From assembly GCA_951406725.2 (NCBI GenBank), contig OX597835.1:48236001-48300000 (forward strand): a stretch of DNA of 64,000 nt. The letters run 5' to 3'. Both the position numbers and the translations under genes were made by a program. The notes under the pieces are model-generated. The model was not told where the DNA came from. It ran no database searches and saw only the letters and a program-made list of their open reading frames with translations. This stretch comes from Octopus vulgaris. Taxonomy: Eukaryota. Shown in pieces: positions 1,080 through 28,389 of the stretch (position 1 is the stretch's first letter; the number at the start of each line of letters is the position of its first letter).

Positions 1080-1530
1080 ACCAAGATTTTAGAACATTAT
1101 AAAATTGGTCTTACAGCTGTTTCCATGATATTTATTATATCCCTTCATCGGAGCTGGTGTGAGAAGATGGTTAAGCAATAGTTAATTTAGATAAGATACG
1201 AAATAGAGAGTGAAGTGGAGGAATGAAGATAGATGTAAGATATGTAGGGATATAGTATTTGTAGCATTTGCAGAATGGTATACATATAAGATTCCAATAT
1301 CTTGTGAGTTAAATAGAATAGTATTTAAAATGCTACATGCAGCACGGAATTTTATCAGTGAACATATCGCGGTCTCAAAGCGATGAAAATATTTTGACAA
1401 ATTTAAATGTTTTAAATTTTGTGTGTTTCTTAAATGGCTCATAAACGTCTTCCACGCTGCAATTGTTTTTGCTCCAGCACAATATCTCAGATTAGGTCAC
1501 TTGCTATGCAAGTACATCTCCGTAATCATC
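1080..1530 (-). mobile_element. Penelope-like element remnant with degenerate type I hammerhead
   Basis: Minus strand 1107-1152 reads CCGATGA-AGGGATAT-aataa-ATATCATG-GAAAC-AGCT-GTA-AG (hammerhead core, palindromic helix III loop). Upstream MSHLRNTQNLKHLNLSKYFH only weakly resembles PLE GIY-YIG sequence. Confidence 0.55.
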
Positions 1531-1545
1531 TCTATAATGTATATA

Positions 1546-1622
<77 letters not shown>

Positions 1623-1666
1623 TACATATAATAAATAGTAAATAATATATAATGTATATGTGTATA

Positions 1667-1734
<68 letters not shown>

Positions 1735-1924
1735 TTTCTTGGATTTGGTTTTCAAGATTATTTATGTGAGTTCGTGTGTTGAAGCACATGCTGCTGTGCC
1801 TGAAAAGGTTGCAAGACTCAACGAAAATTCTAGAAAAGTAAAGAAGGAAATAAGTGGAAATTTTACCGGTGAGTGTATTAAATTATAAGGCACGAAAAGA
1901 AAATGATTCTCTCCAGACATAACA

Positions 1925-1979
<55 letters not shown>

Positions 1980-2044
1980 CATATATATACGTACATACAT
2001 ATATATACATACATACATACATATATATACATACATACATATAT

Positions 2045-2190
2045 GGGTACATTGCTAACGGTGCAAATAGCATGACATACTTAAACAACGAGAGAACAGG
2101 ACAAGTAAACACAGAGAAAGGACCCTTCATCAGTTGTCGGTTGTCCATGTACTCCGCATTTCGAGCATTGAACGACAATATGAGTATAAT
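2045..2190 (-). ncRNA. Short repeat with a hammerhead-like motif of non-standard strand order
   Basis: Minus strand 2186-2122: TACTC-ATA-TTGTCG-ttcaat-GCTC-GAAA-Tgcg-GAGTA-catggacaac-CGACAA-CTGATGA-A-GGGT. Intact CUGAUGA and GAAA; all three helices can pair. Confidence 0.5.
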
Positions 2191-3746
2191 ATATATACGC
2201 GTACATATATGCATATACATATACACCTGGCCTGTTAGAAGCTCGATGGAAATGCTTACGACTTTGCCAAATTTCATCATATGAAATCTGTGTGAAACTT
2301 CTTTGTTCGGAAACAGTTCTTACTTAAGACAAACCTATCATTCTACATATGTGTGTTTATGCGCGTGAGTGTGTGTACATATATGTGCGTGTGTGTACTT
2401 GTGTGTGTGTGTGTGTGTGTGTGTAAGTGTGTACAGATTTATCCCTAGGATGCAAAAATGGGTGTATATAATTAATGTATGTAGTTATGAGCAACATATA
2501 TTGTAACTTATTGGATTTGAAGTAGATGTTGAGGTATTAGTCTAAGAAATTGGACCCTAAATATGGTTCTGTTTAATCACTACACGAAAACATGAAAGGG
2601 GAACAGCAACAACAACAGTAACAACAACAACAGGTCCAGCTGCAACAACAATAACAACAGCACAACAGTATTCGCGAGTTCTGTTTTCCCTTTAAAGCAT
2701 AAAATTACTGAAACTAAAAAAATATGAAGAAGAAATATTTATACAACATCAACTACAAAACCAGTAACAGCATTAATAATTATGAAAGAAAAAATGTTCT
2801 TTTAATTTTTAATTGCTAGGAAGATTAGTTGATGCGACTGTTAATTAGAGAACGAAAGAGGGAGAGAGAGAGAGAAGAGGGAGAGAGAGAGAGAAAAATG
2901 GGAGGGAGACAGAAACAGAGAATGAAAATGAAAACTATACCGAAATAGAAATTTTATACCTGTATACATACATATACACATATATTTGTGTATATATGTA
3001 TATATATACATACATATATACACAATTATATATATATATATACAATTGTGTATATATGTATGTATGTCTCCTGCTGTATCAACATTTGCCTATCTGTTTA
3101 TGGTTGTGTGTGTGTATGCGCGTGCGTGTGTGTTATAAGGCAGATAGGAGGAGTGAAGCATTGAGAGACACTCGCACACATATACACATATACATATATA
3201 CATATATACACATATACATATATACGCACAAGTTACGTCTTCAAGAAAAGTAGATGAACCCAAGAAGGATTAAATACTTGTAAAGCAAGAAAACACTTAT
3301 TTCGAGGATTAACATCTCAGTTACGCTTTGAAGTATCACTTGTCGGTTGTCTTGCTTCTTTAAATATTAAACAAAATAAACATCACGCATCACACCGTCT
3401 CTTCATCCAACCCTCTTCCCCGTCGTGTAAATATGTTCTCGACACCGATGTCTAACAGATCTGTCACAAGTCTGACCTCCACCAACCCACGAAACTGCTA
3501 ACCTACAATTGCCATCTGGCGACACTGTTACATATTGCCTAATAATTCCAATGCTATCTCCTTCCGCTACCAAGAAAACTCGTTCCAGGAATAAGTACAG
3601 GGGTCCTTTTGCTCAACAAAGCCTTCCAAATCTTCTCCATATTATGGCTGCAGTCCAATGAGAGACAGAAACAAATAACATATTTCCGTGTATATGTATA
3701 TTTCCGTGTATATTTCCGTGTATATTTCCGTGTATATGTACACACA

Positions 3747-3848
3747 GAAGAGACTAAGCTCGAAACGTCGAAGACTTTTCCATTTCTCCGGAGCGTCGAA
3801 CTAAATACACCTGTCTCTCTCTTTTGTTTTCTATACATTTTAACTACG
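3747..3848 (+). mobile_element. Partial PLE-type terminal repeat (family H1) with truncated hammerhead
   Basis: ...GAAGAGACTAAGCTCGAAACGTCGAAGAC...; direct repeat of the 3' part of 3896-4088. Confidence 0.6.
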
Positions 3849-3895
3849 CACACACACAAACACACACACATACACACACACACATGCACACATAT

Positions 3896-4210
<315 letters not shown>

Positions 4211-4212
4211 TC

Positions 4213-4404
4213 AAATTTTGTCATAGGGTAAGAAATTTAAGGGAGAGGTAGGTGGATTACACTGACTCCAGTGTTCAACTGCTACTTATTTTATCGGCCA
4301 CGGAAGAATGAAAGACAGTCGACCTAGGTCGAACGAGAACTCAGAACGTAAAGACGGACGCAATGCCGCCAAGCATTTTGTCCGGTGTACTAACAATTCC
4401 GCCA
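4213..4404 (-). mobile_element. tRNA-derived SINE family B, head interrupted by LINE
   Basis: Aligns to the copy at 44870-45104 (CCAGTGTTCAACTG..ACTTATTTTATCG..AGTCGACCT..GAACTCAGAACGTAAAGACGGACG). Confidence 0.8.
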
Positions 4405-5688
4405 CACCCGTTAAAAGGAGGGCTGGGCATGCCGTGGTTGATGATGCGCAGACACGCGCTGAGACTGCGACATCTCTGGCTCTATGTAGACGACGGTGAA
4501 CAGGTGTGGTCGCCGTTTGTGAGGCACGCTTTCCCGCAGCTCGTCTCCATGACCGAACTGCAGTCGTGGATCAAAAAGAGGCCGAGGAAGGGCGAATGGC
4601 ACCGCGAGTGTCGCGTTGCTCTCAAGCAACTCTGCCGTCCTGGGTCGACCTTGAGTGACTTCAACACAACCAAAGCATTCTATAGGGGTTTAGTGGAGGG
4701 GAGGTACGACGACGAGCTCGGGGCGAACCTGGACGTCGACGAGGAGTACCTGACCCGCCTGTTCCGGACGACTTTCGGGCCAGGGCCCATGGACAACTTC
4801 TAGAGATCCCTGGCCTGGCAGTGCTACCGAGAAGCGCTACCCGTTCGGGATAAGCTCTACAGACACGGCTCGAGAAACACGGGGCCGACCTGCCCGAGAT
4901 GCGGTCAGAGCGACGAAACCGTTCTGCACGCACTCGTGCAGTGTCCAACAATTTCCGACGTGTGGGCTTATGTCGAACAACTGCTGTCACGTGTGGGACG
5001 AGTCGGTTTATCAGCTGAGTCTATCGTCAATATTGTCACGCCTCCTTCCTTCAAACGGGAAGGAAGAGCTATTTTCATCATCCTTGTGGCTATGGCGAAA
5101 GAATGTATCTGGTGGACTCGTCTGAAAGGATTGGAGACAAACACTTTCCTCTCTGGTCAATCTCTCATCAACTTCTTCAAGTACCACTTGAAAAGGAAAG
5201 TGAGAGTAGAGAGGCAAGTTTTGTCTAGCGAATGTTTTAAAAAAAGATGGGTGAATGTAGCAAGAATGGCACGTATGAATGACGAAGCCACCTTGAGCAT
5301 GATCCTATGAACCCAGAAATTGAAAACAGAGAGTTGCTTATTCGCAAAAAAAAAAAAAAAAAAGAAATATAACATGTGACTCCATTGACCGAGGTTACCG
5401 TGGTTTTTTCCGTAGGCTTTTCTTTCCACGGGTAAACCTCACCTGTCCTCCCCTTTACACTTCATATTGACATTTCTGTGATAACGATCCCTATTGATCA
5501 ATTTTTTTTTTTCCTCTCCCACTTTTTTTAACCCCCTTTTTTTTTGTCCTCTTTCTCTCCTTTTACGATCCCTTTTGATCGAAACTCCCCCGTCCTTTTT
5601 TATTTTTTTTTTTAAACCTTCAAAAGAAAAGCTCTACCTTGTAATTTGTTCTATCTGTGTGCAGCCCTGTGTGGCTAATAAAGAAACA

Positions 5689-22329: not shown

Positions 22330-22843
22330 GCGTGCTGTAAAATCACACCACTCCATTCACACTAGCACTGGCCACTTCTCAGCACCCACATCACACAACG
22401 TCATCCACACACCCACACACATAATCTTCAATAATCACCACACATAACACTATACACATATCCACACGTTACAGATGCACACACAGAGATTTGTCAAAGA
22501 CTTGACAAAGTAACTGTCTTCTATTCACACACACACTTGCACATTCATACACACCATTCTCACATGCCCACCTCCGCACAGGCACCTTCAGTTGGTGTTA
22601 CCGTCCCTTCCTTCCAACCTCTTCTTTCAAACACCTTCTCAAATCAGTTGCTATGCTGGACCGCTAAATCTACAAGTTTTTCCTTATCTCTGTTTCTTTC
22701 TTCTCATATTTCTTTCTGCTGAAGAGCGTAGGCTCGAAACGTAATAGCCTTTTTCATTTTTCATTTCCCGGCGTCAAACTAACACTTGCTTGTTGTTCAT
22801 ACACTTGTCTTCGTCTTTTCTTTTTCTATAAATTTCATCTGTA
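22330..22843 (+). mobile_element. PLE-type terminal repeat H1 (22651-22843) with upstream CA-rich body
   Basis: CTGCTGA-A-GAGC-gtag-GCTC-GAAAC-GTA at 22716-22743. Confidence 0.7.
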
Positions 22844-22857
22844 TATATATATATATA

Positions 22858-22960
22858 AAATCGTTAAAGGCACGAAATTGCGTATGACCCTCTGGCCGAT
22901 AACTGATGAGGAGTTGGTGACCATCTGTATCTGTTTCCAGTTTGTGCATTTATTATATGT
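22858..22960 (+). ncRNA. Second copy of the permuted hammerhead-like motif
   Basis: aaATCG-ttaaag-GCAC-GAAA-TTGCG...CGATAA-CTGATGA-GG; same spacing as 2122-2186. Confidence 0.4.
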
Positions 22961-28224: not shown

Positions 28225-28389
28225 GTGACCGCGTGTGTACCGTTGGTGATTTTTTTCCTCCGTCTTCCCTTCTCTGGATCTTTCCTTTTCCTATGTTTCT
28301 GACGAAGAGCTCCGCTCGAAACGTTAAGCCCTCCTTCTTCCCGTCCTCGCGTTGTTGTGTTTTCTCTTTGTGTTTTCATGTTTGGATTA

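What the first reader, a model, noticed from the sequence alone, without database searches (positions are those of the whole stretch)
2122..2186. Hammerhead-like RNA whose strand order fits none of types I, II or III
Seen (minus strand): TACTCAT-A | TTGTCG | ttcaat | GCTC | GAAA-Tgcg-GAGTA | catggacaac | CGACAA | CTGATGA-A | GGGT. Helix I TTGTCG/CGACAA is a perfect 6 bp placed directly after an AUA triplet and directly before CUGAUGA. Helix III pairs AT/AT plus TACTC/GAGTA across a 3-nt bulge. Helix II GCTC/GGGT has two wobbles. Known: types I-III are circular permutations with nested helices. Inference: here the order is NUH...GAAA...CUGANGA, so all three helices cross. That implies a fully pseudoknotted monomer or an obligate dimer, which standard hammerhead descriptors would miss. 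The 6-nt linker joins the distal ends of helices I and II, which lie close together in the known hammerhead fold.
Basis: partly seen in the sequence, partly recalled or inferred. Interest (0 to 1): 0.85.

Follow-up and report, generated by a model that had tools for sequence, protein, structure and literature searches.

The report
Split-core hammerhead ribozyme in animal retroelements
The flagged bases are a broken-off piece of a jumping-gene repeat, present in many thousands of copies in this animal genome, whose RNA pairs up into a hammerhead (self-cutting RNA) wired in an order we could not find described; it likely cuts itself, probably only when two copies meet, and it would explain why a large group of animal retroelements seemed to lack this ribozyme.

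Summary
The motif is real and not chance: it is a 5'-truncated, mutated copy of a ~670-bp non-coding Penelope-like repeat. Its block order (cut site, GAAA, CUGAUGA) is that of the published non-circular type SGC hammerhead (Eckert 2023), so the order itself is known. Across 12 families or singletons in this genome, helix II pairs with a strand 22-28 nt upstream of the cut (5 or more Watson-Crick pairs in 11 of 12). The bases after A9 pair further upstream still, next to a hairpin. The core strand is therefore broken between A9 and G10.1, a wiring outside the six published types. The same plan sits in the 3' UTR of this genome's Naiad reverse-transcriptase element. Read by eye, 9 of 17 published Naiad 3' ends, a group said to lack canonical hammerheads, parse as split-core or CSG hammerheads. 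Copies' 5' ends cluster at the predicted cut (scan-corrected P 0.02), which is indirect evidence of cleavage. An outer helix extending helix III suggests cleavage needs two copies. Cleavage and dimer are untested. The window copy lacks the upstream strands and is probably dead alone.

The parts
2041..2185 (-). 5'-truncated copy of the family A repeat (3' ~145 nt of a ~670-bp non-coding Penelope-like element); lacks P5 5' strand, hairpin P6, helix II 5' strand and P4 5' strand
2180..2184 (-). helix III 3' strand (16.5-16.1)
2179..2179 (-). A17; predicted cut between 2179 and 2178
   Evidence: analogy with hammerhead core; 5' ends of copies cluster here
2173..2178 (-). helix I 5' strand
2163..2167 (-). 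helix II 3' strand (11.5-11.1); its partner lies upstream in full copies and is missing here
2159..2162 (-). core G12 A13 A14 A15.1
2155..2159 (-). helix III 5' strand, one mismatch (2156) against the family
2150..2153 (-). AGUA of the internal loop between helix III and outer helix P4 (faces GAA in full copies)
   Evidence: both strands in 34 of 50 copies
2141..2146 (-). P4 3' strand, decayed, partner missing
2134..2139 (-). helix I 3' strand
2127..2133 (-). core C3-A9
2121..2126 (-). P5 3' strand (follows A9; pairs about 75 nt upstream of the cut in full copies; partner missing here)
1926..2040 (.). (TA)n-type microsatellite at the element's 3' end
22860..22920 (+). second, decayed copy of the same ribozyme plan from another family (H2), also truncated near its cut site

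Best explanation
The 65 bases are the 5'-truncated remnant of one copy of a Penelope-like repeat whose RNA pairs, as covariation across families shows, into a hammerhead core with its strand broken between A9 and G10.1; it likely cuts itself after the NUH triplet, likely only when two copies pair, and so would set the 5' end of the RNA that a Naiad-type reverse transcriptase is inferred to copy. Chain order in full copies (shown by pairing): P5 5' strand, hairpin P6, helix II 5' strand, P4 5' strand, helix III 3' strand, cut, helix I 5' strand, short link, helix II 3' strand, GAAA, helix III 5' strand, P4 3' strand, helix I 3' strand, CUGANGA, P5 3' strand. On its own a copy can fold without knots: P5 closes a 'foot' loop (P6, helix II 5' strand, helix I 3' strand, CUGANGA), and P4 plus helix III form a rod ending in a 'head' loop (cut site, helix I 5' strand, helix II 3' strand, GAAA). 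Helices I and II join head to foot. Inferred: the rod keeps a molecule's own head and foot apart, so the foot of one copy docks on the head of another (a second copy in a head-to-tail transcript, or another molecule), as with the dimer-dependent hammerheads of other animal Penelope-like elements. Inferred: the cut 5' end is where reverse transcription runs off, giving copies, and upstream partial copies, that begin at the cut. The window copy is such a product and cannot form the family's helix II.
For: Covariation on 55 copies of five subfamilies, sequence-only MAFFT alignment: 92.4% of cells paired, 17 of 28 pairs with two-sided change, score 0.469 against 0.236 shuffled (0/500) and 36-45% paired when slid. 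Seven different helix II sequences in all. U16.1 in 47 of 50 copies, position 17 never G. 26 of 30 loci picked without the CUGANGA block have it intact; among these only N7 differs between families. 5' ends: 12 of 89 copies picked by the 3' end alone lie at -3..+16, 3.1 expected, scan-corrected P 0.0185, and only 2 lie at -72..-4; a second set has 24 of 106 at -5..+14 against 14 at -72..-6. Penelope-like anatomy: (TA)n 3' end; 15 of 98 copies followed by the element's own start; L002 is a head-to-tail pair whose first copy begins 10 nt before the cut. Naiad link: 8 of 15 loci picked by reverse-transcriptase DNA carry family N downstream; family N matches the published Octopus Naiad 3' ends. 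P4 forms in all families, 3-10 pairs, ending 0-3 nt before helix I. Dimer precedent: PMC4209133 passages.
Against: No cleavage assay and no RNA data: no RNA holder was listed and only contigs could be laid. Two helices inserted between A9 and G10.1 have no precedent that I found; only a single unpaired base is documented there, and the insertion could disable the core. Copies are related, so the shuffle control overstates significance; the three two-sided pairs of helix II in A3 mostly reflect one split (A/C against B/E/F). Family N alone shows no covariation above shuffles (179/500). The H2 consensus gives only 3 contiguous WC pairs for helix II (one copy gives 6). P5 is short or imperfect in N, H2, J and M. 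The swap control for P4 was not clean: cognate flank and linker were best in only 2 of 6 rows. Within family A the core is barely better kept than flanks (92-95% against 90%), so inserted copies decay neutrally. Nearest-neighbour folds of A, B, F and N prefer other nested folds to P4-III. The 5'-end window was chosen after seeing the data. The dimer rests on geometry, not on a 3D model. No ORF was found upstream of 14 copies of families B, C, E and F (output partly cut), and family A is a closed non-coding unit, so Naiad as their mobiliser is inferred.
Confidence: 0.55

Rival explanations
1. Same split-core wiring, but it folds and cleaves as a single molecule: the internal loop between helix III and P4 bends back so that head and foot of one copy meet.
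For: The loop is up to 7 x 8 nt in family A; published SGC and CSG ribozymes cleaved during transcription although their equivalent helix is sometimes joined directly to helix III (PMC10085705); most copies in the genome are single.
Against: The loop is short or largely paired in E and N and, read by eye, a single bulge in Naiad-4_Dst; AGUA/GAA on facing strands in 34 of 50 copies is the signature of a stacked bulged-G motif (recalled).
Confidence: 0.22
2. A structured but non-catalytic signal derived from a hammerhead (for example a binding site for the element's protein); the 5' ends cluster because reverse transcriptase stalls on the fold or joins by TA microhomology.
For: No precedent for the A9/G10.1 insertion; family A has AUAU at the cut; 61 of 89 copies extend more than 3 nt past the cut.
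Against: All catalytic bases and the NUH rule are kept in 12 families with different stems; ends do not cluster at the 3' feet of the helices (+17..+132 has 15 of 89); families without AUAU also end at the cut.
Confidence: 0.13
3. An ordinary type SGC monomer, with helix II formed by the bases right after CUGAUGA.
For: 92.7% of cells pair in subfamilies A-F; the motif fits an SGC descriptor.
Against: Pairing is by wobbles; its one common two-sided column is equally explained by P5; it drops to 1 pair in H1, H2, J1, J2 and M.
Confidence: 0.07
4. Chance resemblance in microsatellite-rich DNA.
For: 1-2 of 60 window shuffles gave a descriptor hit.
Against: Thousands of copies against 0 in controls and strong covariation.
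Confidence: 0.01

Closest known systems
Type SGC (HRIMA-1) and type CSG non-circularly permuted hammerheads (Eckert et al. 2023, PMC10085705)
   Same: Full hammerhead core; cyclic order cut site, GAAA, CUGANGA; short link between the far ends of helices I and II; a fourth helix at those far ends.
   Different: Block C is broken between A9 and G10.1 by helix P5 and hairpin P6, which the six-type scheme assumed cannot happen; the fourth helix is tied by both strands to helix III; found in an animal genome and a retroelement, whereas the paper reports no SGC or CSG in genomes of known organisms.
Minimal type I hammerheads of animal Penelope-like elements (Cervera and de la Pena 2014, PMC4209133)
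   Same: Sit in the terminal repeat or 3' part of Penelope-like elements; thought to act as dimers; an unpaired base after A9 is common.
   Different: Those are nested type I with a palindromic helix III; here helix III is complete and the inferred dimer swaps the CUGANGA foot.
Naiad Penelope-like elements (Craig et al. 2021, PMC8557442)
   Same: (TA)n targeting, 5' truncation, inverted 5' pieces, short tail; family N is the 3' UTR of the published Octopus Naiads.
   Different: Described as lacking canonical hammerheads (8 'half cores'); here they carry non-canonical ones. Families A-J are non-coding.
Animal non-LTR retrozymes (bioRxiv 10.64898/2026.07.22.740005, passages seen; other features recalled)
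   Same: Short non-autonomous hammerhead-bearing derivatives of Penelope-like elements.
   Different: Retrozymes are tandem arrays; these copies are mostly dispersed and about 670-800 bp; circular RNA not shown.
Pseudoknot (PK) hammerhead with helix IV (PMC11300833)
   Same: Helix II made as a pseudoknot; an extra helix near the core.
   Different: There helix IV carries the loop for the pseudoknot and links to helix I, pistol-like; the passages read describe no break after A9.

Membership tests
Hammerhead ribozyme | CUGANGA and GAAA core bases | tested here: met
   26 of 30 loci picked without CUGANGA have it intact, only N7 varies between families; GAAA was part of the search patterns, so its conservation is not independent
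Hammerhead ribozyme | NUH triplet with A15.1-U16.1 | tested here: met
   U16.1 in 47 of 50 copies, position 17 A, C or U, never G; A2 was picked without this block
Hammerhead ribozyme | Helices I, II, III around the core, with covariation | tested here: met
Hammerhead ribozyme | A9 joined to G10.1 directly or through 1-2 bases | tested here: not met
   A9 continues into helix P5; G10.1 follows hairpin P6 upstream
Hammerhead ribozyme | Site-specific self-cleavage after H17 | not testable with these tools
   indirect only: 5' ends of copies cluster at the site
Types I, II, III | Nested helices, circular permutation | tested here: not met
   order NUH, GAAA, CUGANGA; Rfam 0 hits
Type SGC | Order cut site, GAAA, CUGANGA with short helix I-II link | tested here: met
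   link 1-7 nt
Type SGC | Unbroken block C (helix I strand, CUGANGA, helix II strand) | tested here: not met
Type SGC | Fourth helix between the G-C linker and the 3' tail | tested here: not met
   the linker pairs with the 5' flank instead (P4); no conserved tail pairing seen by eye
Penelope-like element (Naiad type) | (TA)n insertion, 5' truncation, inverted pieces, tail or partial tandem | tested here: met
Penelope-like element (Naiad type) | Reverse transcriptase ORF | tested here: inconclusive
   broken RT remnants upstream of family N in 8 of 15 loci, Pfam RVT_1 below cutoff; none found for B, C, E, F or inside family A; one H1 copy follows a Naiad RT end
Non-LTR retrozyme | Tandem arrays giving circular RNAs | tested here: inconclusive
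   2 full head-to-tail pairs and 1 partial among 98 copies; circles not testable with contigs

The most novel reading that the evidence does not exclude
A seventh natural hammerhead wiring, with two helices inserted between A9 and G10.1, is active as a head-to-foot swapped dimer. It is a circular opening of the same architecture as the CSG hammerheads of nematode and spider Naiads, so non-circularly permuted hammerheads are the standard ribozyme of Naiad retroelements across several animal phyla (about 20,000 copies in this genome alone), and the puzzling geometry of published SGC/CSG ribozymes is a sign that they too are dimers.
Probability: 0.45. Interest if true: 0.92.

Novelty: new variant of a known kind. 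Interest (0 to 1): 0.82.

Why it matters
It would extend the hammerhead beyond the six wirings thought possible and show that the A9/G10.1 step can carry a whole domain. It would move non-circularly permuted ribozymes from anonymous metagenome contigs into animal chromosomes at high copy number. It answers a stated puzzle, the lack of canonical hammerheads in Naiad elements, with a directly testable RNA, and gives a genomic read-out (5' ends at the cut) for what hammerheads do in Penelope-like retrotransposition.

Tried and rejected
Rfam scan: 0 hits. Single-strand fold of the window copy: z -0.64, uninformative for a knotted RNA. The loose pattern (20,662 against 198) was dropped as a copy count: about half of its first 100 rows are a canonical type I hammerhead repeat. 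MAFFT misaligned family N with the others, so its 10 copies and one truncated G copy were left out of A2. One search's parser mis-anchored family C and P6 in F and N; redone. Two loci from the generic pattern (L379, L380) do not fit the plan. Sequencing runs: no RNA holder listed; contigs of 4 runs show presence only. No ORF partner found upstream of 14 copies of B, C, E and F. A tail-paired fourth helix as in HRIMA-1 was looked for by eye and not found conserved. Earlier scan findings: none bore on this. Lunse et al. 2017 on dimeric Penelope hammerheads is not held; only its title was seen. Not-in-print claim rests on 10 searches and passages; subscription papers and the preprint's supplements were not seen.

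Full report
Observation. The letters are as reported. A descriptor for the order NUH, GAAA, CUGANGA finds one hit in the window and 1 in 60 shuffles at like stringency; Rfam finds nothing. The window lies in a 2.8-Gb, microsatellite-rich animal genome, most likely an octopus (inferred from the match to published Octopus Naiad 3' ends). The motif is part of a dispersed repeat: 2727 first-look candidates for the window stretch, 3016 exact pattern matches against 0. A generic pattern with 20-32 nt between GAAA and CUGANGA has 27,401 matches against 5,769 for the reversed control, so roughly 20,000 copies of all families; only a sample of these was examined.

The order is known. Eckert et al. (PMC10085705; main text parts 1-6 of 8 read; supplement searched) named it type SGC and showed cleavage. 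They found SGC only in metatranscriptomes and CSG only in metagenomes, and assumed that CUGANGA and its two neighbouring strands form one unbroken block.

The element. Family A is about 670 bp, non-coding, with a fixed 3' end at (TA)n and variable 5' ends. 15 of 98 copies with room downstream are followed by the element's own first 40-55 nt or by a second copy; L002 and L334 are full head-to-tail pairs. Inverted 5' pieces are common. These are Penelope-like traits (PMC8557442 passages). The window copy starts 7 nt before the predicted cut and has one change in helix III.

Helices I and III. On 50 copies of subfamilies A, A2, B, C, E, F, G (10 N copies and 1 truncated copy left out), helix III has 4 of 5 and helix I 5 of 6 pairs with two-sided change.

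Helix II is elsewhere. While reading a published ostracod Naiad end by eye I saw that the strand before GAAA pairs upstream. In this genome the same holds. On 55 copies chosen for an intact upstream sequence (A3) the revised model gives 92.4% paired cells, 17 of 28 pairs two-sided, score 0.469 against 0.236 shuffled, and 36-45% paired when slid. The upstream helix II scores 0.555 with nearly all pairs Watson-Crick. Four families and two singletons fetched afterwards were a blind test: H1, J1, J2, K and M give 5-6 WC pairs at -22 to -28, H2 gives 3 in the consensus and 6 in one copy, and the direct helix has a WC run of 1-2 in all 12. Chance for each, by shuffling the upstream window, is 0.005-0.08 (0.57 for H2). 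The bases after A9 pair with the strand just before hairpin P6 (P5: 6, 4, 7, 5, 6, 3 and 11 pairs in A, B, C, E, F, N, H1; imperfect in H2, J, M). Against: copies are related, so shuffle counts are not probabilities, and family N alone shows no excess.

The core. 26 of 30 loci picked without CUGANGA have it intact. U16.1 is kept in 47 of 50 and position 17 is never G. Inside family A the core is only slightly better kept than flanks, as expected for dead insertions; the selection is on the source lineages.

Signs of cleavage. Of 1031 matches to a 3'-end motif I fetched 90 of the first 100 listed, giving 89 distinct copies. 12 begin at -3..+16 from the cut (3.1 expected; P 1e-4; 0.0185 after correcting for choosing the window), 2 at -72..-4 and 15 at +17..+132. 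In a second set of 106 copies from several subfamilies, which cannot show ends beyond +14, 24 begin at -5..+14 and 14 at -72..-6. Stalling or TA microhomology remain possible; direct RNA data were not available.

Monomer or dimer. Helix III is extended by an internal loop and an outer helix P4 (3-10 pairs). The loop has AGUA facing GAA in 34 of 50 copies, the signature of a stacked bulged-G motif (recalled). P4's outer end lies 0-3 nt from the far ends of helices I and II. In the hammerhead fold helix III stacks under II and helix I lies beside II, so those far ends and the end of helix III are at opposite poles; Eckert et al. note the same difficulty for SGC. A rod closed by both strands cannot easily return, so a head-to-foot pair of copies is the simpler solution (inference). 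Folding gives the nested P5, P6, P4-III form for family C, P4-III for E and P5 plus P6 for A, but other folds for B, F and N. In a partial tandem such as L002 the downstream foot would cut the upstream head, giving a template whose copy again starts at the cut (inference).

Naiad link. Craig et al. state that Naiads lack canonical hammerheads and flag 8 'half cores'. A motif from the Octopus Naiad 3' end has 493 matches against 0 here; 8 of 15 loci picked by RT-coding DNA carry it downstream (Pfam RVT_1 E 1e-5, below cutoff). I read 17 published Naiad 3' ends by eye only. Six parse as CSG with all helices (Parc, 1_Nbra, 3_Nbra, Hcon, Hpol, Smim), three as split-core (Obim, Ovul, 4_Dst), one partly (Esco), and seven not in the stretch seen (Adux, 1_Skow, 3_Dst, Ppla, Ppac, Sdum, Omin). 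Six of the 8 half cores are fully explained. CSG and split-core forms are the same cyclic order opened at different places, with P4 as the helix joining I and II.

Papers seen otherwise as passages: PMC4209133, PMC11300833 (first part), PMC3088659, PMC10162972, PMC13725137, PMC6155905, bioRxiv 10.64898/2026.07.22.740005 (supplements not seen). None of these passages describes a break after A9 or permuted hammerheads in Penelope-like elements; the ten searches are listed under Tried and rejected.

Verdict. Real feature; works like a hammerhead; not a member of types I-III or of type SGC as defined. The wiring is well supported (about 0.85), cleavage likely (about 0.75), dimer dependence the leading but untested mechanism.

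Noticed in passing
window 3967-3989, 22719-22741, 28299-28323 (+): Copies of minimal type I hammerhead repeats (CUGANGA, short helix II, GAAACG palindrome) of the usual Penelope-like kind.
   Followed up: no
L113-L140: A very abundant (AAT)n-associated repeat with a canonical type I hammerhead and one extra A after A9; about half of the first 100 rows.
   Followed up: partly
PMC8557442 supplement File S5, 3' ends of six nematode and spider Naiads: Type CSG hammerheads with a long helix joining helices I and II, read by eye; type CSG was known from a handful of soil metagenome sequences.
   Followed up: partly
family A 5' part, e.g. L002:1300-1320 (-): A splice-donor-like site near the element start, kept in A, B, C and F, followed by long pyrimidine tracts; Penelope-like elements have a 5' intron.
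   Followed up: no
L343:1-1550: An H1 ribozyme copy lies 1.1 kb after a Naiad RT end on the same strand, in place of family N; nested insertion or an alternative 3' UTR.
   Followed up: no
window 4312-5310 (+): Broken C-terminal part of a LINE-type ORF2 with a CCHC zinc knuckle (label recalled).
   Followed up: no
L277:~1300-5600: A long, nearly intact endonuclease plus reverse transcriptase LINE in two frames, unrelated to the ribozyme.
   Followed up: no
family A-F tails, e.g. window 2099-2105 (-): About 20 nt after P5 the tail repeats part of the helix I 5' strand and could compete for the helix I 3' strand.
   Followed up: no
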